Positions 12,247-40,981 of a stretch of DNA of 64,000 nucleotides are shown here, piece by piece. Source of the stretch: a phage; sequence record NC_129898.1, one strand, 5' to 3'. Below the pieces are notes generated by a model that saw nothing but the letters and a program-made list of their open reading frames with translations, did no database searches and had not been told where the DNA came from. Positions within the stretch are counted from its first letter, which is position 1. Every line of letters starts with the position of its first letter. Both the position numbers and the translations under genes were made by a program.

Positions 12247-13035
12247 TTACTCGGAAACAGGAGTCCAAATATGATTTGCACGATCCTCAATAAGATTGAG
12301 TGCAATCTGACGGCCTAACCCGGAACGAACGACATCGTCTGGACTATCAAAGCTAATCATTCCAACCTCAGGATCTGGATGACGCGTAAAGAAATCTGTC
12401 ACCCATGCAAGGCCAGATTTACCAGGGATGTCACGTTGGCTGTTATCGCCCATAATTACAAGGGTGGCCTGATCAGAGATCCTTGTGATAATTGACAACA
12501 TTTCTTCAGGATTGGTTTGCTGTGCTTCATCAATAAGGACAAAGCATCGTTCATCAAAACTACGACCACGAATGCTTTCAACCTCACAAATCTCGATACG
12601 GCTGTTCTGACCGTCTCCAAGCATTGCTGCAAAAGCACCTTTGCCAACACGACGACAAATCGTGTCCATCATGCTTCTAAGATAGGGCCACAGTTTCTGC
12701 ATTGCATTTCCAGGTTTAAATCCTGAAGTCTTTCCTGTCTGAACGTAAGGGCGTGCAACAATGATCTTATCAATCTCGTTCTTGCGCAGAAGATCCCCTG
12801 CATATGCAGATGCCATGAATGTCTTACCGGATCCAAACACACCGTTTACAATGATAATCTTACGCGACCCTAGATAATCAAGATACTTTTGCTGCTTTTT
12901 ATTCATTGGTCGGAGAGCTGGAGCGGTGTGCTCTCGTTCGTCAGCAAATTTTTCAGCAGCCTTACGCAGGCGATCAGATTTGCGAGCCTCTCTAGCTTCA
13001 TCACGCATGCGTTTTGTTTCTTTAGCTCGACCCAT
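12247..13035 (-). CDS. phoH: PhoH-like ATPase
   Basis: Walker A GVFGSGKTF and Walker B VLIDEAQ in PhoH-like arrangement; 262 aa. Confidence 0.8.
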   Translation of the reverse strand: MGRAKETKRMRDEAREARKSDRLRKAAEKFADEREHTAPALRPMNKKQQKYLDYLGSRKIIIVNGVFGSGKTFMASAYAGDLLRKNEIDKIIVARPYVQTGKTSGFKPGNAMQKLWPYLRSMMDTICRRVGKGAFAAMLGDGQNSRIEICEVESIRGRSFDERCFVLIDEAQQTNPEEMLSIITRISDQATLVIMGDNSQRDIPGKSGLAWVTDFFTRHPDPEVGMISFDSPDDVVRSGLGRQIALNLIEDRANHIWTPVSE

Positions 13036-13596: not shown

Positions 13597-14070
13597 TTAG
13601 TCAACCTGAACCCAACCGCCTGCTACCTTTTTAAACATTCTTTGGTTATCACTGCCTCGGAATGGTTTCTTGGTTGGTAAATCTTTTACATACTTTCCAT
13701 CAATGACGATATCAGCCAGTTTAAGAACATCACTAGAGATATGCTCAAATGTGAACCCAGTATACACAAGAATAGTTTTCTTGTCACCAAACTTTTCCTT
13801 AATTCTCCTCATAAGGTTGATAATATCTGGCTCATTATAAGTAGCCAAAGGCTCTCCACCAAGTAAAGAAATACCGCATACAGATTCATTGTCTAAATCC
13901 AACAAAATTTTCTGCAAATCTTCTTCGGTGAACTCTCTTCCTTTATCTTTTGACCAAAATGCTTGATTAAAGCAACTGGGACAAGCGTGTGGGCACCCAG
14001 ATACCCACAAAGCTGTCCTAATACCTGGCCCCTCGGTGTAAGATATCTCTGTATACCCGACAATATTCAT
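13597..14070 (-). CDS. nrdG: anaerobic ribonucleotide reductase activating protein (radical SAM)
   Basis: CPHACPSC radical-SAM cysteine motif; start set to ATG at 14070 (MNIVGYTE) overlapping the upstream stop. Confidence 0.8.
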   Translation of the reverse strand: MNIVGYTEISYTEGPGIRTALWVSGCPHACPSCFNQAFWSKDKGREFTEEDLQKILLDLDNESVCGISLLGGEPLATYNEPDIINLMRRIKEKFGDKKTILVYTGFTFEHISSDVLKLADIVIDGKYVKDLPTKKPFRGSDNQRMFKKVAGGWVQVD

Positions 14071-14183
14071 ACATACTCCGCATCGCATTTAGGACAATGC
14101 CAAATAAAATCGTCCAGTGCCTTACACCAACGAAGATTGCAATGACAACCACACTTGCAAATTTTATAAATACCTGTAGACAT
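14067..14183 (-). CDS. small Cys-rich (zinc-ribbon-like) peptide, 38 aa
   Basis: GGAGG RBS 7 nt upstream of ATG 14183; MSTGIYKICKCGCHCNLRWCKALDDFIWHCPKCDAEYV; stop overlaps nrdG start (ATGA). Confidence 0.35.
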   Translation of the reverse strand: MSTGIYKICKCGCHCNLRWCKALDDFIWHCPKCDAEYV

Positions 14184-14246: not shown

Positions 14247-15239
14247 TCAGCAACCACAACTTCCGTAGTGCTTAACCCGTTCTATAACCTCCGCTTGCTT
14301 ACCTTTATTGTAAGGACGGGAGTTTGGACTGGACAGATACCCGGATACACGTCTAATCACACTGATCGTTCCCTCTTCATGGTTTCCACACTCTGGGCAT
14401 ACAAAGCCTTTAGCTGTTGCACTGAACTCACCAGAGAATCCACACTTAAGACATTTATCCACAGGCTGGTTAATACCAAAATACATAATGTGTTTATATC
14501 CGAAATCAACAAGAGCTTCCAAAGCATCTAAGTTGTTTTTCAGATTTGGTGTCTCTATGTACCCAATGTTGCCACCAGAGGAGATCATAGCAAAACCTTC
14601 CTCATACTTCCACTTATCAAAAGGCGAGCTATTGATCCATACTGGCTGATGGAAACTGTTGGTGAGGTATTCATGCTCGTGCTTCAACACTTCTGGGTAT
14701 TCACGATCCAGACAGGTTGCAGCTTTATAGCATAAACTCTCAGAAGGTGTGCCGTACAAGCTAAATGCTAGTCCACTTTCCTTCTTGTATCGCTCACAAG
14801 CATCTTTCATGTGCTGAAGGATTCCAAGAGCTAAAGCCTTGTCACCCTCTCTGCCCAAAATCTGACAGGTTTCATACACACCAATATACCCAATACTGAT
14901 GGAAGCGTACCCGTCATAGAAGAGTTTATCGATACTCTCTTCAGGATCCAGGCTAGCAAGAGCTCCTTCACACCACATGATAGGGTTATGCCCTGCCTTT
15001 GTTCCTTTTAGACGGTTAACTCTTACAAGGTGAGCCTCATATGCCAAATCCAAATATTCGTCAAGAACTGCAAAGAAATCAACACCTTCCGTTTTAGCTT
15101 TTGCCGCAATCATTGGTAGGTTAAGGCTAACAACACCCAAGTTGAATCTGCCAAGGTATTTCTCCTCGCCTGTTACAGGGTCGCTATATTTCGATAAGAA
15201 ACTTCTACACATTATGTTCAAGGTGGTTCGCAAGGCCAC
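14247..15239 (-). CDS. nrdD: anaerobic ribonucleoside-triphosphate reductase, C-terminal part
   Basis: Glycyl-radical-type RVSGYL motif and C-terminal Cys cluster; reading frame remains open upstream of the GTG at 15239. Confidence 0.85.
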   Translation of the reverse strand: MALRTTLNIMCRSFLSKYSDPVTGEEKYLGRFNLGVVSLNLPMIAAKAKTEGVDFFAVLDEYLDLAYEAHLVRVNRLKGTKAGHNPIMWCEGALASLDPEESIDKLFYDGYASISIGYIGVYETCQILGREGDKALALGILQHMKDACERYKKESGLAFSLYGTPSESLCYKAATCLDREYPEVLKHEHEYLTNSFHQPVWINSSPFDKWKYEEGFAMISSGGNIGYIETPNLKNNLDALEALVDFGYKHIMYFGINQPVDKCLKCGFSGEFSATAKGFVCPECGNHEEGTISVIRRVSGYLSSPNSRPYNKGKQAEVIERVKHYGSCGC

Positions 15240-15962
15240 CCCCGCACCATTACGTGCTGCTGCATGTCCCCATGCAGATCAGACTATATCTTCACACTTA
15301 GTGTGTCTACCATTTCGAGTGTCATCAGCTTACACCCTACACCGCTACATTCATCACGGTTAGTCGTTAGGCATTTCGTAACAGAACTCGTAATCATAGT
15401 TATTAGGTGCACCACGTTTCAGGATAGCAGATATTCTTTTTCTATCTATTCCTAAAACATCAGCACAACATCTCAGACTCTTAAAGTGAATAACCACACC
15501 AGTTAATTTGTGGGTGGCTTTCACCCCGTGACATCTTGTGTAAAAAGCATAACAGTTGTTGTCGTATCCTTCTTGAGTATTGTCTGGGCAAGCTCCCCAC
15601 TCAAGGTTGTATACGCTGTTATCTTTCCTGTTGTCACCTTTGTGCTTAACATATGGTAAATTGTCTGGATTTGGTAAAAACGCTTCAGCAACAAGTCTGT
15701 GAACCCTTAGGCAAACAGTCTTTTTGTTCTTGCGTATCCTGACAAGACGGTAACCTGTGTTTATCTCTTCCCACGAATGAATAATTCTTTCATTTTCGTA
15801 TCGGGTGCAATAAACATTGCCCATCTCGTCAATTTCATAACCTTCAAAATCACGAATTTGTTTTCTCATTTCAGGACTCCTCTTAGTCAGGAGTTCTGTT
15901 ACGTTTAGCACGGGATTGTCCGTTCTGGAGTTTCCCCGTTTAGATAGATTTTACATGAGCAG
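15240..15962 (-). mobile_element. intervening sequence splitting nrdD (group I intron or free-standing homing-endonuclease insertion)
   Basis: About 720 bp between the two nrdD reading frames, containing an HNH endonuclease ORF on the same strand. Confidence 0.5.
15360..15869 (-). CDS. HNH homing endonuclease
   Basis: VHRLVAEAF...HKGDNRKDN...NLEW HNH core; ATG at 15869 preceded by AGGAG. Confidence 0.75.
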   Translation of the reverse strand: MRKQIRDFEGYEIDEMGNVYCTRYENERIIHSWEEINTGYRLVRIRKNKKTVCLRVHRLVAEAFLPNPDNLPYVKHKGDNRKDNSVYNLEWGACPDNTQEGYDNNCYAFYTRCHGVKATHKLTGVVIHFKSLRCCADVLGIDRKRISAILKRGAPNNYDYEFCYEMPND

Positions 15963-17132
15963 TTATAGTTTACCCATGCTTGTTACTTTGCCGTCTGTTG
16001 AACCTGTCACTTTACGATTTAGTGGAACAGAAACAAAGTCAGGATAAATCCGCTCTGCAGAGCATTCTAGAGCCAATCGTTTCAAATCGTAGTTAGGATC
16101 CCCAGGGTTCATGTTGACACCCTCCTCTAAGAAGAACAGCACTTTAGGAAACACAGGGGTGATCCGTTCTTCACCAAGACCCATTTTGTGGACTTTCAAG
16201 TAGTTTTTGGTAATCATTCTACCAAAGACCGAGGTATCCAGTCCTAAACTTAATGTGATGAATGGAGTTTGCCCGTTGACAGAAGTTAACGTATTGATTT
16301 GGTAGAGCAAAGTTTGCATACTATCAAACACGTCTTTATCTGTCATTTGCATTGCAACAGTCTCAGCATCTGGCAACCAATGCTCCTGACAAAATTTAAG
16401 GTTCTTCTCATAGGTTGCTTCAGCATACTGTGCCAGATAATGATCAATATGGCTCATGGTTTGACCACCATATTGAGCACTAGCTACTGCACTAGAGATT
16501 TGGCTAAGGATTGTTGTTGCAACCCCTATTGACTTCGGCTTACTGACATGGGCGTTGCCAATGTTGAATCCGTTTTCCAGCATATCCGGATAATTTACCA
16601 AACAACAGTTTGTTAACGGACTGATCAGGTAGTCAAGATCATGCACATGGATGAAGCCTTTGTTGTGCTCTTCGGAGACACGGTCTGGCAGGATCTGTGT
16701 TGATGCAAGATGTTTGCTAAGGATGCCTGCAAGCAGGTCACGATGAGTGTGTACATGATTAGTAGGCTTATTTGCGTTTTCTTTTGTAAATTCATCACAA
16801 GTACGATCCAAGAAGCCACTAATATCTGCAAGCAGTTTTCCACCTGCCTCTCTGTTATTATCTCTTGTCTGTCTATACTGGATGTATTCTCTGGCTGCAC
16901 ATTTTAAACCCATATCCATAAGAGCATCTTCAACAAGGATATGGATATTTTTTACAGAGATCGTGCACTGGTCGGTTGGCAGATTGTTGGCAACAACTTC
17001 ATTAACCGCACAGGCAATCCGGTAAGCTTCTTCTTCAGTATGTCCAGACTCAAGTAAGGCGGACTCTGCCGCCTTGATCACCTTAATTCCGTTATAAAAC
17101 TCTTCTCTACCGTCCCGTTTTACAACTTTCAC
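15963..17132 (-). CDS. nrdD: anaerobic ribonucleoside-triphosphate reductase, N-terminal part (ATP-cone)
   Basis: N-terminal VVKRDGREEFYNGIKV ATP-cone; terminates at a stop immediately 5' of the HNH region. Confidence 0.85.
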   Translation of the reverse strand: MKVVKRDGREEFYNGIKVIKAAESALLESGHTEEEAYRIACAVNEVVANNLPTDQCTISVKNIHILVEDALMDMGLKCAAREYIQYRQTRDNNREAGGKLLADISGFLDRTCDEFTKENANKPTNHVHTHRDLLAGILSKHLASTQILPDRVSEEHNKGFIHVHDLDYLISPLTNCCLVNYPDMLENGFNIGNAHVSKPKSIGVATTILSQISSAVASAQYGGQTMSHIDHYLAQYAEATYEKNLKFCQEHWLPDAETVAMQMTDKDVFDSMQTLLYQINTLTSVNGQTPFITLSLGLDTSVFGRMITKNYLKVHKMGLGEERITPVFPKVLFFLEEGVNMNPGDPNYDLKRLALECSAERIYPDFVSVPLNRKVTGSTDGKVTSMGKL

Positions 17133-17407
17133 TTTTTCTCTCCAAAACCATTCTTAACAAAAGAGATGAAATCGTCAGCACCACCTATGTGGATACTGTC
17201 AAGGTTGCTTTCCAAGAAGATCTGAGGCAACGTTCTGGGAACAAATGGGCTACACTTCTCGATAAGCTCTTCTTTTGTGTATCCCTCACCTAGCGTCTTG
17301 TATACGAAAGGTATGCCTTTGCTGACTGCAAATTCTTTTGCTCTTACACAATGTGGGCAGTTATCCTTGCCGTAAATGATGATGAAAAAAGATTTTTCGC
17401 AGCTCAT
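17129..17407 (-). CDS. nrdH: glutaredoxin-like protein (NrdH-like)
   Basis: CPHC redox motif near N-terminus; 92 aa; between nrdD and nrdB. Confidence 0.7.
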   Translation of the reverse strand: MSCEKSFFIIIYGKDNCPHCVRAKEFAVSKGIPFVYKTLGEGYTKEELIEKCSPFVPRTLPQIFLESNLDSIHIGGADDFISFVKNGFGEKK

Positions 17408-17410
17408 ATA

Positions 17411-18499
17411 TTAAAACTCCCAAATTTCTTCTTCAGCGTCGTTAACGGTTGTGTTGACGCGGTAGTCGGTGTTAGACATTTCCTGGTTAGCCGTCTGTTG
17501 CAGTGAAGGTTTCATCCACACCTGCATAAACGGTAGCGGGTCCTTTGTTGGCGGCACAAAGTCTTTGTCGATGTCGTAATAATCATAAATCGGTGAGCAG
17601 TTATAGTCAACCCATTCTTTAAGCAACGGGGAATTAAGACCTATAATCGCTCTTCCTTCGCTGAAAATATAGTCACTCCAACCGTACTCCTTGGTCCGCA
17701 CTTCGTCAAGAATTTCTTTTAACTCACCCTTAATCTCAAGAAAGCTTTGCTCCCATGCAGGATCATCAAGCAGGATATCGATGATAGCAAAATCACCTTT
17801 CGAATGCAGCATTTCATCAAGCATAATTTTTTGAACAAGTTGTGCCACTTGAACAAAAATACCTTGCTCAGCTACTGCGAACGTACATGCAAAACTTGCA
17901 ATAAACTCAATACTTTCTAGAGCTAAAAGTGCAAAAAGTGCTCTAAGGATACATTTCCGTACAACATCTTCTTCAACACTGGAAGGATCCAGTCGGTATT
18001 TTGCACCAATAACCTCAAGCTCTTGCATATATTTGACAATAACTCCAGATCTGCTCAGCACGTTCTGGTTTTCCTGAATCTCTTCTATAATCTCGCGAGC
18101 ATTAGGAAGGCATTGTCTAACAATCTCTGAGTAAGTTAGTGCATGAAGAACCTCAATCTCAGACTGCTTCATCAACAAGGTGAAAAGCTCACTGTTGGTG
18201 ATAAATGGTGAAAACAGACAAATGATAGATCTTGCTGCAACACTGTCTGCCTCCCATTGCCACATCAGTGTCTGCACCATCACATCGTAAGTTGACTTTG
18301 AGCATGTTACGAAATCAGAAATAGACTGTGACAAATCTACTTCGTCCTCTGCCCAATCTTGTTCTTTTTGTTTTTTGTATAGTTCAAACAGCTGTGGATA
18401 CTTTTTGTTAATAGAGTCGTACATCCCCATCTGCTGTCCTAGAAACAGCGGATAATCACCAGTTTTATGAGCAGTGTTCTCAGTATTAAATACGGACAT
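17411..18499 (-). CDS. nrdB: ribonucleotide reductase class I beta subunit
   Basis: 362 aa; di-iron ligand helices (E..H patterns); directly downstream of nrdA. Confidence 0.85.
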   Translation of the reverse strand: MSVFNTENTAHKTGDYPLFLGQQMGMYDSINKKYPQLFELYKKQKEQDWAEDEVDLSQSISDFVTCSKSTYDVMVQTLMWQWEADSVAARSIICLFSPFITNSELFTLLMKQSEIEVLHALTYSEIVRQCLPNAREIIEEIQENQNVLSRSGVIVKYMQELEVIGAKYRLDPSSVEEDVVRKCILRALFALLALESIEFIASFACTFAVAEQGIFVQVAQLVQKIMLDEMLHSKGDFAIIDILLDDPAWEQSFLEIKGELKEILDEVRTKEYGWSDYIFSEGRAIIGLNSPLLKEWVDYNCSPIYDYYDIDKDFVPPTKDPLPFMQVWMKPSLQQTANQEMSNTDYRVNTTVNDAEEEIWEF

Positions 18500-40045: not shown

Positions 40046-40117
40046 GCCCTGTTAGCTTAGTGGATAAAGCAGCGGCCTTCTAAGCCGTTGACACTGGTTC
40101 GAGTCCAGTACGGGGTG
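40046..40117 (+). tRNA. tRNA-Arg (anticodon TCT)
   Basis: Acceptor GCCCTGT/ACGGGGT, D-stem GCTT/AAGC, anticodon loop CTTCTAA, T-loop TTCGAGT, CCA encoded. Confidence 0.8.
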
Positions 40118-40250
40118 CCAAGTTCTTTTTAATGTAGCTTACTTTAGCAGAGTAAATCTTCGGCAAGTGGCGGTAACCACTTTACCGATACCTCATAGTT
40201 AGTGGTGAGAACACTAGCTATTTTAAAAAGAATTTAAATATTAGTATTTA

Positions 40251-40335
40251 GGTGAGTTAATTCCGTAGGGGTAGCGGGGCAGACTGTAAATCTGTTATCA
40301 TTGCGATTCGGGTGGTTCGACTCCATCACTCACCA
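40251..40335 (+). tRNA. tRNA-Tyr (anticodon GTA), long variable arm
   Basis: Acceptor GGTGAGT/ACTCACC, anticodon loop CTGTAAA, T-loop TTCGACT, discriminator A, CCA encoded. Confidence 0.75.
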
Positions 40336-40452
40336 CCAAATTTATATTTTTAAATGCATAAATCATACAGATAATGGCATTGATATTTATCGTCGTTTAT
40401 ACTAGTCACTAACTGCTCGAAAATCAGTGTCATTATCAGTATTGTTTATAAA

Positions 40453-40540
40453 AGAGGGTAGGGAGCAATGGTGCTCAAGCGGTCTTGAAAACCGTCCCGT
40501 TGAGGATGACTCGATGATGGTTCGATTCCATTATCCTCTG
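40453..40540 (+). tRNA. tRNA-Ser (anticodon TGA), long variable arm
   Basis: Acceptor AGAGGGT/ATCCTCT, anticodon stem GCGGT/ACCGT with loop CTTGAAA, T-loop TTCGATT, discriminator G. Confidence 0.7.
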
Positions 40541-40640
40541 CCATATTGTTGACCTTGTAATTAAGCGAAAGCCGGAAGCAGAACCGGATTATCAAATGTT
40601 ACAGTCGTCATCGCCGACTAGCCACATGGTCAACATATTG

Positions 40641-40737
40641 CGCTAGGTAAGCCCTTTGGCAAGGGCGAGGATTTTTAATCCTGAAAATAGACGAGGTAGT
40701 CGTTGAATACATAGATGGTTCGATTCCATCACCTAGC
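40641..40737 (+). tRNA. atypical 97-nt tRNA-like element (anticodon loop TTTTTAA, possibly UUU)
   Basis: Perfect acceptor GCTAGGT/ACCTAGC, D-stem GCCC/GGGC, canonical T-arm GATGG-TTCGATT-CCATC, but ~30-nt variable region with ACGA-GGTAG-TCGT hairpin. Confidence 0.35.
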
Positions 40738-40743
40738 ACCTTT

Positions 40744-40816
40744 TGCTGATGTAGCACAATTGGCAGTGCAATTGATTTGTAATCAATAGGTTGCAGGTTC
40801 AAGTCCTGCCATCAGC
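40744..40816 (+). tRNA. tRNA-Thr (anticodon TGT)
   Basis: Acceptor GCTGATG/CATCAGC, D-stem GCAC/GTGC, anticodon stem ATTGA/TCAAT with loop TTTGTAA, T-loop TTCAAGT. Confidence 0.8.
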
Positions 40817-40820
40817 ACCA

Positions 40821-40892
40821 TGGCCCTGTAGCTGGAAGGTTCAAGCAAGCGACTCATAATCGCCAGACGGTGGTTCAATTCCACCCAGGGCC
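40821..40892 (+). tRNA. tRNA-Met or Ile2 (anticodon CAT), elongator-type
   Basis: Acceptor GGCCCTG/CAGGGCC with paired 1:72, anticodon loop CTCATAA, T-loop TTCAATT. Confidence 0.7.
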
Positions 40893-40907
40893 ACCAAATT
40901 ATAAATA

Positions 40908-40981
40908 CTCCGCGTAGCTCAGCTTGGTAGAGCGCCTGATTTGGGATCAGGAGGTCGAGTGTTCGAATCACTCCGTGGAGA
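40908..40981 (+). tRNA. tRNA-Pro (anticodon TGG)
   Basis: Acceptor CTCCGCG/CGTGGAG (C1:G72), D-arm GCTCAGCTTGGTAGAGC, anticodon stem CCTGA/TCAGG with loop TTTGGGA, T-loop TTCGAAT. Confidence 0.8.

What the first reader, a model, noticed from the sequence alone, without database searches (positions are those of the whole stretch)
14247..17132. nrdD split into two reading frames by an HNH homing-endonuclease-bearing insertion
The ATP-cone/N-terminal part (15963..17132) ends at a stop codon, and the glycyl-radical C-terminal part (14247..15239) resumes about 720 bp downstream in a frame that is open upstream of its first start codon. An HNH endonuclease ORF (15360..15869) with its own AGGAG RBS lies between them. 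Only about 200 nt of the insertion lie outside the endonuclease ORF, which is short for a complete group I intron core, so a split-gene arrangement (two NrdD polypeptides that reassemble, as described for an nrdA split by an endonuclease in an Aeromonas phage) is a real alternative to splicing.
Basis: partly seen in the sequence, partly recalled or inferred. Interest (0 to 1): 0.6.

Follow-up and report, generated by a model that had tools for sequence, protein, structure and literature searches.

The report
Self-splicing intron inside phage nrdD

Summary
nrdD (minus strand) is read as two ORFs, 15963..17132 and 14247..15239, with an HNH ORF (15360..15869) between them. The boundaries and the "too short for an intron" argument do not hold. 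The insertion is 762 nt (15210..15971). Removing it rebuilds a 2124-nt ORF of the same length as the uninterrupted nrdD of phage rV5, 696/707 aa identical, joined at TSMG|CRSFL. That is directly before the codon aligned with the catalytic Cys290 of T4 NrdD. The RNA has every group I (IA2, T4 td/sunY-like) element: P1 with U·G, P3–P9.2, the P3/P7 pseudoknot, P7.1/P7.2, P10 and a terminal G, all fully paired. The HNH gene (I-HmuI-like) lies in the P6a loop, and its last codons (…EMPND*) double as P6a'/P6'/P7. This leaves a core of about 280 nt, the size of the ORF-less orthologous intron of phage phi92 (279 nt, Rfam 70.6 bits, annotated "spliced variant"). Seven homologues show 34 of 78 pairs with compensatory changes. 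Distribution among rV5-like phages is sporadic, and a 35-nt divergent exon tract flanks the insertion site, which fits homing. Splicing itself is inferred, not shown. This is a routine new member of a well-known kind.

The parts
15972..17132 (-). nrdD exon 1 (GTG start; ATP-cone + N-terminal half; ends ...VTSMG, last base T15972)
   Evidence: Aligns without a gap to rV5 nrdD nt 1-1161 at 96% identity. Pfam ATP-cone and NRDD profile 1-263.
15210..15971 (-). Group I intron, subgroup IA2 (T4 td/sunY-like), 762 nt, from AAACUAUAA... to ...ACAUAAUG
   Evidence: Its removal restores a 2124-nt in-frame ORF. A leave-window-out nhmmer profile hits only 15970-15886 (E 2.8e-15) and 15400-15210 (E 5.5e-56) in the window. 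Rfam Intron_gpI scores 32.9 bits, E 2.7e-6, on the 3' half.
14247..15209 (-). nrdD exon 2 (starts TGT = Cys388, aligned with T4 NrdD Cys290; glycyl-radical domain, C-terminal Zn ribbon)
   Evidence: Pfam NRDD profile 263-562 and Gly_radical.
15360..15869 (-). Intron-encoded HNH homing endonuclease, 169 aa, I-HmuI-like, located in the loop of P6a. The last codons (EFCYEMPND*) overlap P6a', P6', J6/7 and P7.
   Evidence: PDB 1u3e (I-HmuI), E 6e-8 over residues 3-166. phrog_59 HNH endonuclease, E 4.5e-32. Pfam HNH_3 and I-HmuI_NUMOD-like are below threshold. Orthologues are 48-90% identical in nepoznato, phiS and F99 introns at the same site.
15953..15979 (-). P1: 5' exon GCAUGGGU (+A) paired with internal guide sequence UGCUCAUGU. 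U15972·G15960 wobble at the 5' splice site.
   Evidence: 9/9 paired. Hairpin -9.5 kcal/mol, z -4.0. Found independently by RNAalifold.
15964..15968 (-). P10 5' strand (CUAUA in L1), pairs with the first 5 nt of exon 2 (UGUAG, 15205..15209)
   Evidence: 5/5 paired. Intron-less rV5 has UGCCG here.
15910..15948 (-). P3 5' strand (15943-15948), P4 (15934-15939 / 15910-15915), P5 (15927-15929 / 15919-15921)
   Evidence: Near-identical to T4 td AAUCUAUCUAAACGGGGAA...GACAAUCCCGUGCUAAA.
15891..15909 (-). P6 (GC) and P6a 5' strand (CGUAACAGAACUC), pairing with 15371..15389 inside the end of the HNH ORF
   Evidence: 13-bp perfect complement read from the sequence. 6 of 7 counted P6a pairs show compensatory changes.
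15876..15894 (-). Hairpin ACUCCU/AGGAGU that sequesters the Shine-Dalgarno of the HNH ORF. Its 5' arm is shared with P6a.
   Evidence: MFE -12.4 kcal/mol, z -3.2.
15282..15389 (-). P6a'/P6' (15371-15389), P7 (GACUA 15361-15365 with UAGUC 15282-15286), P7.1 (15341-15360), P7.2 (15317-15337), P3' (15306-15311), P8 (15293-15305), J8/7
   Evidence: All pairs are standard. There is compensatory change in P7, P7.1, P7.2, P8 and P3. J8/7-P7' GAAGAUAUAGUCUGAUCUG is unique in the window.
15210..15277 (-). P9 (15260-15277), P9.1 (15244-15257), P9.2 (15220-15242), 3' tail UGAACAUAAUG ending in the terminal G at 15210
   Evidence: The tail is identical to the T4 td intron end.
15175..15209 (-). Exon-2 tract linked to the intron (probable co-conversion / P10 / cleavage-immunity tract)
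   Evidence: 16 of 35 nt differ from rV5 against a 4.3% background, P about 2e-13, the densest such window in the gene. The first 14 nt, TGTAGAAGTTTCTT, are identical in all intron-bearing alleles of four phage groups. No intron-less allele in the collection exceeds 92% identity to the spliced junction.

Best explanation
The window comes from an rV5-like coliphage (Vequintavirus). Its nrdD gene carries a mobile group I intron of the T4 td/nrdB/sunY type (subgroup IA2) at 15210..15971 on the minus strand.

Shown by sequence:
- The intron sits between the codons for Gly387 and Cys388, the cysteine aligned with catalytic Cys290 of T4 NrdD.
- It contains all core helices: P1, P3-P9.2, the P3/P7 pseudoknot, P7.1/P7.2 and P10.
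- It has a U·G pair at the 5' splice site and a terminal G.
- An I-HmuI-like HNH endonuclease gene lies in the P6a loop, and its 3' end is co-encoded with P6a'/P6'/J6-7/P7.

Inferred:
- After transcription the RNA folds, binds guanosine and excises itself by two transesterifications. This joins ...AGCAUGGGU to UGUAGAAG... and gives one mRNA for a 707-aa NrdD.
- The endonuclease cuts or nicks intron-less nrdD alleles of co-infecting relatives near the GGT|TGC junction. Repair copies in the intron plus adjacent exon bases (homing with co-conversion). This would explain the sporadic distribution and the divergent 35-nt exon-2 tract.
- Endonuclease translation is probably restrained by a hairpin over its Shine-Dalgarno. 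It is also mutually exclusive with ribozyme folding, because the ORF's last ten codons are core helices.
For: - Exact excision restores a 2124-nt ORF equal in length to the intact rV5 nrdD, 696/707 aa identical, with junction TSMG|CRSFL. The two Pfam NRDD matches abut at profile position 263.
- The 5' and 3' intron parts are homologous to T4 td and T4 nrdD introns and to hundreds of phage introns.
- A leave-window-out profile hits only the two intron arms, ending exactly at the predicted boundaries.
- ORF-less orthologues at the same site score 70.4-79.8 bits against Rfam RF00028, whose gathering score is 50. The phi92 GenBank record annotates a 'spliced variant' CDS, and my join reproduces an open 1800-nt frame.
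- RNAalifold recovers P1, P3, P4, P5, P6, P6a, P7.1, P7.2, P8, P9 and P9.2 unaided.
- With P7, P10 and P9.1 added, 95.4% of cells pair and 34 of 78 pairs carry compensatory changes. Slid controls give 31-44% paired and 3-7 such pairs, and 0 of 500 shuffles match.
- All 14 helices are fully paired in the window copy.
- The HNH protein aligns end to end with I-HmuI.
- The intron is present in about 17 of about 300 related records and absent from rV5 itself.
- The exon tract is statistically exceptional.
Against: - No experimental evidence of splicing or homing exists for this phage. I found no paper describing this nrdD intron, and the phi92 paper could not be read.
- The window copy itself scores below Rfam's gathering threshold (32.9 bits), because the model cannot bridge the ORF.
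- The structure used for pair counting was partly derived from the same sequences, and three of the seven are close relatives.
- Pfam HNH_3 and NUMOD matches are below their curated cut-offs. The residue aligned with I-HmuI Asp74 is Lys, so endonuclease activity is not assured.
Confidence: 0.93

Rival explanations
1. Genes-in-pieces: the insertion is not removed from the RNA. NrdD is made as two polypeptides (1-387 + KL, and a C-terminal piece starting at GTG 15239 or at the intron-terminal AUG 15212) that reassemble, as for Aeh1 NrdA split by mobE.
For: Exon 1 ends at a stop 3 codons into the insertion, and exon 2's frame is open upstream. The intron's last three bases, AUG, are in frame with exon 2, so pipelines annotate an 'MCRSFL...' CDS. 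A precedent exists for an RNR subunit (PMC2988022). A related phage, CB7, has one HNH-associated interruption that did not splice in RT-PCR (PMC7344957).
Against: A complete, fully paired and covarying ribozyme core surrounds the ORF. Exon bases are kept complementary to the guide sequence, P1/P10. Relatives have the same interruption with no endonuclease at all. There is no Shine-Dalgarno before GTG 15239 or AUG 15212, and both lie in or next to the P9.2 hairpin. The break falls at the catalytic cysteine loop.
Confidence: 0.03
2. A decaying intron: the element was once self-splicing but is now splicing-impaired, so nrdD is effectively a pseudogene in this phage. The host NrdD, or the phage's class Ia NrdAB, would suffice.
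For: The phage also encodes NrdB (17411..18499) and a glutaredoxin, and E. coli has its own nrdDG, so nrdD may be dispensable. T4's nrdB intron ORF shows that such elements do decay (PMC2988022).
Against: No helix has a single mismatch in this copy. The catalytic-core strands are identical or nearly identical to the self-splicing T4 td intron. Both exons remain open and 98% identical in protein to intact rV5 NrdD. The HNH ORF is intact and 90% identical to that of a phage of another subfamily.
Confidence: 0.04
3. Sequencing or assembly artefact (frameshift or chimeric join).
For: None specific.
Against: The same 762-nt element at the same position is 97-99.9% identical in independently sequenced phages HMD-6, EPFV3, YP-6, phita32 and JEP1.
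Confidence: 0.003

Closest known systems
Phage T4 nrdD (sunY) group I intron with I-TevII
   Same: Same host gene and the same intron family (IA2). The 5' half is very similar: no P2, a guide sequence GCUCAUG, then UAAAAUCU..CUAAA(A)CGGG. The P7-P9 core is shared at about 80% identity (H57).
   Different: The insertion site differs. T4's lies in the codons for ...QAYEYEVN..., about 112 codons upstream at roughly window residues 273-277. This intron is at Gly387|Cys388. T4's ORF is a GIY-YIG enzyme placed downstream of the core (3' of P9, L007 2152-2928). Here the ORF is an HNH enzyme in the P6a loop.
Phage T4/RB3 td intron (I-TevI) and nrdB intron (I-TevIII)
   Same: The ORF sits in the P6a loop. 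P7.1/P7.2 are present. The core strings are near-identical (AAUGCCUAACGACUA, GAGAUAUAGUCUGAUCUGCAUGG.GACAUGCAG, 3' end UGAACAUAAUG). The ORF's ribosome-binding site is sequestered in a hairpin, as reviewed for the T4 intron ORFs (PMC2988022). According to that review, I-TevIII is also an HNH enzyme in an RNR gene.
   Different: The host genes and sites differ. td has a P2 helix that is absent here. I-TevI is GIY-YIG. Here the ORF's 3' end runs into P6a'/P6'/P7.
phi92 / AMO3598 / 18-1-2 ORF-less nrdD introns, and nepoznato / Krischvirus phiS / Vibrio phage F99 HNH-bearing nrdD introns
   Same: Orthologous elements at the identical site (…MG|CRS…) with the same P1/P10 exon bases. Four lineages carry an orthologous HNH ending …EMPND*. 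The phi92 record already annotates the spliced CDS.
   Different: They are 85% identical or less in nucleotide sequence to the window copy. The ORF is deleted in three of them: phi92 by a deletion between two CTG repeats, while AMO3598 keeps the last ORF codons. They reside in other phage subfamilies.
I-HmuI (Bacillus phage SPO1 DNA polymerase intron endonuclease, PDB 1U3E)
   Same: Full-length alignment (169 vs 174 aa, E 6e-8). It covers the N-terminal beta-hairpin region, the HNH motif (H-x..-N-x..-NLxW) and the C-terminal helix-turn-helix/NUMOD-like domain. Both are encoded in phage group I introns.
   Different: Identity is low, and the target gene and host differ. The residue before the catalytic His is Lys here and Asp in I-HmuI. 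Whether it nicks or cleaves is unknown.
Aeromonas phage Aeh1 nrdA split by mobE (genes-in-pieces)
   Same: An RNR gene is read as two ORFs with an HNH endonuclease gene between them.
   Different: According to the review read here (PMC2988022), the Aeh1 insertion is a free-standing endonuclease gene and the two halves are separate polypeptides that reassemble. Here a full ribozyme surrounds the ORF, and the downstream half has no translation signals.

Membership tests
Group I intron (Rfam RF00028), subgroup IA2 (T4 td/nrdB/sunY type) | Conserved core helices P3-P8 (P4-P6 and P3-P9 domains) including the P3/P7 pseudoknot | tested here: met
   All are present and fully paired in the window copy. 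RNAalifold recovers the nested helices. 95.4% of cells pair, and 34/78 pairs carry compensatory changes against 3-7 in slid controls.
Group I intron (Rfam RF00028), subgroup IA2 (T4 td/nrdB/sunY type) | P1 formed by the 5' exon and an internal guide sequence, with a U·G wobble at the 5' splice site | tested here: met
   Exon GCAUGGGU pairs with the guide sequence GCUCAUGU (intron nt 12-19), with U15972·G15960 at the splice site. All seven homologues end exon 1 in GGGU or GAGU.
Group I intron (Rfam RF00028), subgroup IA2 (T4 td/nrdB/sunY type) | Terminal guanosine at the 3' end and P10 pairing with the 3' exon | tested here: met
   The intron ends ...ACAUAAUG (G15210), identical to the T4 td end. 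CUAUA (15964-15968) pairs with exon-2 UGUAG.
Group I intron (Rfam RF00028), subgroup IA2 (T4 td/nrdB/sunY type) | Excision restores an uninterrupted, conserved reading frame | tested here: met
   2124 nt = 707 codons + stop, 696/707 identical to intact rV5 NrdD. Continuous alignment to T4 NrdD (PDB 1h78) across the junction.
Group I intron (Rfam RF00028), subgroup IA2 (T4 td/nrdB/sunY type) | Extra helices P7.1/P7.2 between P7 and P3' (IA2 hallmark) | tested here: met
   15341-15360 and 15317-15337. P7.1 has three compensated versions: ACCG/CGGU, GCUG/CAGC and AUCC/GGAU.
Group I intron (Rfam RF00028), subgroup IA2 (T4 td/nrdB/sunY type) | Score at or above the Rfam gathering threshold (operational criterion) | tested here: inconclusive
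   The window copy scores 32.9 bits (E 2.7e-6) against a threshold of 50, and its 5' half is mis-aligned into the ORF. ORF-less orthologues at the same site score 70.4-79.8 bits. A leave-window-out nhmmer profile gives E 5.5e-56 and 2.8e-15 for the two arms.
Group I intron (Rfam RF00028), subgroup IA2 (T4 td/nrdB/sunY type) | Guanosine-dependent autocatalytic splicing | not testable with these tools
   Needs in-vitro transcription with GTP labelling, or RT-PCR.
HNH homing endonuclease, I-HmuI-like | HNH (beta-beta-alpha-metal) motif with the catalytic His and conserved Asn residues | tested here: met
   ...YVKHKGDNRKDNSVYNLEW aligns with I-HmuI VVDHKDGNKDNNLSTNLRW. phrog_59 and phrog_959 HNH endonuclease, E 4.5e-32 and 1.3e-25. 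Pfam HNH_3 scores only 20.1 against a cut-off of 24.8.
HNH homing endonuclease, I-HmuI-like | C-terminal NUMOD/helix-turn-helix DNA-binding module | tested here: inconclusive
   Pfam I-HmuI_NUMOD-like scores 18.3 against a cut-off of 27. The alignment to 1u3e does run through residue 166.
HNH homing endonuclease, I-HmuI-like | Population signature of homing: sporadic presence among close relatives and altered flanking exon sequence | tested here: met
   17 of 297 related records carry it and rV5 lacks it. 16/35 exon-2 positions are changed, P about 2e-13. No intron-less allele carries the intron-type junction.
HNH homing endonuclease, I-HmuI-like | Site-specific cleavage or nicking of the intron-less allele | not testable with these tools
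   Needs an enzyme assay on the rV5 nrdD junction.
Genes-in-pieces RNR (Aeh1 nrdA-a/mobE/nrdA-b type) | Endonuclease gene inserted without a surrounding self-splicing element | tested here: not met
   A complete ribozyme surrounds the ORF.
Genes-in-pieces RNR (Aeh1 nrdA-a/mobE/nrdA-b type) | Independent translation initiation signals for the downstream fragment | tested here: not met
   No Shine-Dalgarno lies 5-12 nt upstream of GTG 15239 or AUG 15212. Both lie within or next to the P9.2 hairpin (sequence, fold).
Genes-in-pieces RNR (Aeh1 nrdA-a/mobE/nrdA-b type) | Two stable polypeptides and no spliced mRNA | not testable with these tools
   Needs RT-PCR, western blot or MS.

The most novel reading that the evidence does not exclude
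The intron splices poorly or conditionally. Unspliced RNA would then yield a two-piece NrdD broken exactly at the catalytic cysteine: exon 1 + KL, and an exon-2 product started at the in-frame intron-terminal AUG. A weaker version of the same idea is a switch. The shared strand 15889-15903 can form either P6a (ribozyme on) or the Shine-Dalgarno-masking hairpin. Ribosomes finishing the HNH ORF must also melt P6a/P6/P7. Each transcript would therefore be committed either to NrdD or to endonuclease production.
Probability: 0.04. Interest if true: 0.55.

Novelty: new member of a known kind. Interest (0 to 1): 0.15.

Why it matters
The main value is correct annotation. In this phage group nrdD is routinely deposited as two or three separate 'NrdD' CDSs plus a 'hypothetical protein' or 'winged-helix protein'. 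It should instead be one spliced gene (join 17132..15972, 15209..14247) plus an intron-encoded HNH endonuclease.

There are two modest biological points. First, the codon for the cysteine aligned with T4 NrdD's catalytic Cys290 is a recurrent intron target. Orthologous introns sit at this site in Vequintavirinae, Stephanstirmvirinae, a Krischvirus (Straboviridae) and a Vibrio phage, which fits the known rule that homing endonucleases target invariant active-site codons and can cross phage families. Second, the endonuclease's invariant C-terminus (EMPND*) is a clear case of protein sequence fixed by ribozyme core constraints. Neither point changes current understanding.

Tried and rejected
- The Rfam gathering-score scan of the whole window found only tRNAs. 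The permissive scan found the 3' half only and mis-aligned the 5' half into the ORF. This is due to the 510-nt ORF in L6a, not to a missing core.
- I checked whether T4's known nrdD intron is the same element. It is a different site with a different ORF family and position.
- I checked whether the FV3/JEP1 upstream nrdD insertion (residue 287|288) is present in the window. It is not.
- I looked for further td-like introns in the window with two conserved core strings and with the family profile, and found none.
- Literature searches for a description of this intron in rV5-like or phi92-like phages gave only terminase and DNA-polymerase intron mentions. The phi92 paper is not held.
- An IMG/VR scan for the exon-intron junction pattern gave one contig only and was not pursued.
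- A promoter/terminator consensus scan gave no more promoter-like sites than the shuffles and no strong one in front of the HNH ORF.
- Intein and programmed-frameshift readings were not pursued, because the interruption has stops in all frames and the exons abut perfectly at nucleotide level.
Full report
**What is in the sequence**

On the minus strand the ORF list shows three ORFs:
- A 389-aa ORF at 15963..17132. It carries a Pfam ATP-cone and matches NRDD profile positions 1-263.
- A 330-aa ORF at 14247..15239. It matches NRDD profile positions 263-562 from its residue 10 onward and carries the Gly_radical domain.
- An ORF at 15360..15911 between them. Its internal ATG at 15869 is preceded by AAGAGGAG (15884..15877).

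Neighbours on the same strand are nrdB (17411..18499), a glutaredoxin (17129..17407), nrdG (13597..14088) and phoH (12247..13035).

**Origin and comparison with an uninterrupted gene**

The region is 99.2% identical to Escherichia phage EPFV3-03/2025 and 94-98% identical to many rV5-like phages (Vequintavirus). Only 17 of 297 matching records contain the whole 2.9-kb query. Most, including rV5 itself, have one continuous 2124-nt nrdD.
- BLAST against rV5 nrdD aligns window 17132..15972 to rV5 nt 1-1161 and window 15174..14247 to nt 1197-2124.
- Joining 15972 directly to 15209 gives exactly 2124 nt, in frame, 696/707 aa identical to rV5 NrdD, with junction ...VTSMG|CRSFL....
- The interruption is therefore 15210..15971, 762 nt.
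- Aligned to T4 NrdD (PDB 1h78, E 1.6e-167), the first exon-2 codon is T4 Cys290. From my own knowledge of class III RNR, this is the cysteine that carries the substrate-activating thiyl radical.

**The insertion is a complete group I intron**
- The 5' 102 nt contain AAUCUAUCUAAACGGGGAA...GACAAUCCCGUGCUAAA. The 3' 165 nt contain AAUGCCUAACGACUA, GAAGAUAUAGUCUGAUCUGCAUGGGGACAUGCAG and the end UGAACAUAAUG. All are near-identical to the T4 td intron.
- A distant BLAST of the 762 nt finds 582 phage records. These include the T4 nrdD and td introns, Felix O1-like, phiKZ-like, Aeromonas and Vibrio phage introns.
- Rfam's gathering scan missed it. The permissive scan gave Intron_gpI at 32.9 bits (E 2.7e-6) for 15260..15494, correct only for the 3' half. 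The cause is the 510-nt ORF inside a loop.
- ORF-less orthologues at the identical site pass the threshold of 50: phi92 (279 nt) at 70.6 bits, AMO3598 (290 nt) at 70.4 bits and 18-1-2 (252 nt) at 79.8 bits.
- The phi92 record itself carries a 'spliced variant' CDS. My join of phi92 reproduces an open 1800-nt frame through TSMG|CRSFL.
- A profile built without the window copy hits the 64-kb window only at 15970..15886 (E 2.8e-15) and 15400..15210 (E 5.5e-56). These are the two arms, ending at the predicted boundaries.

**Secondary structure**

I aligned seven sequences: window, nepoznato, phi92, 18-1-2, Krischvirus phiS, Vibrio phage F99 and the td intron of T4-related phage RB6. ORFs were excised from the P6a loop and 10 nt of each exon were kept.
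- RNAalifold on its own recovered P1, P3, P4, P5, P6, P6a, P7.1, P7.2, P8, P9 and P9.2, with 29 of 67 pairs compensated.
- I added the P7 pseudoknot, P10 and P9.1. With these, 95.4% of 525 cells are standard pairs and 34 of 78 pairs show changes on both sides. The six slid controls give 31-44% paired and 3-7 such pairs, and no shuffle in 500 reaches the observed values.
- One caveat applies. The structure was partly derived from these sequences, and three of them are close relatives.
- In the window copy every one of the 14 helices is fully paired. Coordinates are:
  - P1: 15971-15979 with 15953-15961, with the U15972·G wobble at the splice site.
  - P10: 15964-15968 with 15205-15209.
  - P3: 15943-15948 with 15306-15311.
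  - P4: 15934-15939 with 15910-15915.
  - P5: 15927-15929 with 15919-15921.
  - P6 and P6a: 15891-15909 with 15371-15389.
  - P7: 15361-15365 with 15282-15286.
  - P7.1, P7.2, P8, P9, P9.1 and P9.2 follow, and the intron ends in G at 15210.
- There is no P2, as in the 5' part of the T4 nrdD (sunY) intron read. P7.1/P7.2 place the intron in subgroup IA2.

**Why the "too short" argument fails**

252 nt lie outside the ORF. In addition the ORF's last codons, GAG UUC UGU UAC GAA AUG CCU AAC GAC UAA (EFCYEMPND*), are themselves P6a', the P6a/P6 internal loop, P6', J6/7 and P7. The functional RNA core is therefore about 280 nt, the same as the ORF-less phi92 intron.

The four orthologous endonucleases (window, nepoznato, phiS, F99) are 48-90% identical yet all end in EMPND*. 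Changes in the P6a' codons (UGUUAC, CGCUAU, UACUUU) are matched by changes in the non-coding 5' strand.

phi92's ORF-less form looks like a nepoznato-type intron that lost the ORF by deletion between two CTG repeats. AMO3598 still keeps the last ORF codons.

**The endonuclease**

The 169-aa product aligns over residues 3-166 with I-HmuI (PDB 1u3e, E 6e-8), including the HNH motif. It also matches phrog_59 'HNH endonuclease' at E 4.5e-32. Pfam HNH_3 and I-HmuI_NUMOD-like are below their cut-offs.

Its Shine-Dalgarno is enclosed in a hairpin, ACUCCU/AGGAGU (15894-15889 with 15881-15876; -12.4 kcal/mol, z -3.2). This resembles the translational control reviewed for the T4 intron ORFs (PMC2988022). 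The 5' arm of this hairpin is also part of P6a, so the two pairings exclude one another. That is an inference and was not tested.

**Signs of mobility**
- The intron is absent from most close relatives.
- It is present at the same site in phages of other subfamilies: Phapecoctavirus nepoznato at 85% identity, phi92-like phages, Krischvirus phiS and Vibrio phage F99.
- In the window, 16 of the 35 exon-2 nucleotides next to the insertion site differ from rV5, against 4.3% elsewhere (P about 2e-13). This is the densest such window in the gene. Nine of the 12 codons in the tract encode the same amino acid.
- The first 14 nt, TGTAGAAGTTTCTT, are identical in every intron-bearing allele although the exons are otherwise only about 70% identical.
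- No intron-less allele in the collection is more than 92% identical to the spliced junction.
- This is what co-conversion during homing produces. Selection for P10 pairing (UGUAG with CUAUA) or immunity of the occupied allele to cleavage could contribute as well.

**Rivals**
- A genes-in-pieces NrdD (the Aeh1 nrdA/mobE model, PMC2988022) would need no ribozyme and would need translation signals for the second half. Here the ribozyme is complete, and neither GTG 15239 nor the in-frame intron-terminal AUG 15212 has a Shine-Dalgarno. Both lie in or beside the P9.2 hairpin. Relatives also have the same interruption without any endonuclease gene. I give this about 3%.
- A decayed, non-splicing intron has no support from any mismatch in the core and gets about 4%.
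- An assembly artefact is excluded by the independent genomes.
- What remains unproven is splicing and cleavage activity themselves. I found no publication on this intron. In the related Pectobacterium phage CB7, RT-PCR showed splicing of four of five HNH-associated interruptions in other genes, and one did not splice (PMC7344957). Experimental confirmation is therefore still worthwhile.

**Comparison with known elements and verdict**

It works like, and by every sequence-testable criterion is, a T4-type IA2 group I intron with an intron-encoded HNH homing endonuclease.
- It differs from T4's own nrdD intron in three ways. The site is about 112 codons downstream. The endonuclease family is HNH rather than GIY-YIG (I-TevII). 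The ORF lies in P6a rather than 3' of P9.
- It also differs from a second HNH-bearing insertion that FV3 and JEP1 carry at residue 287|288.

It is a new, so far only database-annotated, member of a thoroughly known kind. The practical outcome is an annotation fix: nrdD = join(17132..15972, 15209..14247) on the minus strand. Interest is low.

Noticed in passing
L002 1365-2159 (FV3), L003 1365-2158 (JEP1); equivalent window position about 16271|16272: Relatives carry a second, unrelated HNH-bearing insertion in nrdD after residue 287. Its HNH is only 28% identical to the window's. JEP1, phita32 and others have both insertions, so their nrdD is annotated as three CDSs. The window lacks this one. 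I did not check whether it is also a group I intron.
   Followed up: partly
L010 about 2232-2496 (Avunavirus phage 18-1-2): Besides the ORF-less intron at the Gly|Cys site, this nrdD shows another ~260-nt gap in the protein alignment around window residues 540-548. It may be a further ORF-less intron.
   Followed up: no
window 15210-15212 (minus strand): The intron's last three bases, AUG, are in frame with exon 2. This is part of the conserved ...ACAUAAUG end also seen in the td intron. Annotation pipelines therefore call exon 2 as a separate 966-nt CDS starting 'MCRSFL' (e.g. L004 2421-3386, L003 3218-4183).
   Followed up: yes
window 15876-15903 and 15377-15389 (minus strand): The strand 15889-15903 can pair either with the HNH Shine-Dalgarno (hairpin, -12.4 kcal/mol) or with the ORF's 3' end (13-bp P6a). 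The last ten HNH codons are ribozyme core, so translation of the endonuclease and ribozyme folding should exclude each other.
   Followed up: partly
one search hit list (MG065635-MG065690): About 25 records named 'Campylobacter phage' with host C. jejuni are 94-95% identical to E. coli rV5-like phages across nrdD. Several carry this intron. The host label looks doubtful.
   Followed up: no
L005 1501-1779 (phi92) vs L008 1501-2270 (nepoznato) vs L009 1501-1790 (AMO3598): These look like stages of endonuclease-gene loss from the same intron. nepoznato has the full ORF, AMO3598 keeps only the last codons (…YDYEFCYEMPND*), and phi92 has a clean deletion between two CTG repeats.
   Followed up: yes
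DQ832317.1 58834-58969 (rV5 terminase large subunit, H53): The 3' core of this nrdD intron is 77% identical to a sequence inside the rV5 terminase large-subunit gene, which is reported to contain introns (PMC3606486). No second td-like intron core occurs within this 64-kb window.
   Followed up: partly
window 40046-40981 (+): A cluster of six tRNA genes was found by the Rfam scan. It is unrelated to the finding.
   Followed up: no
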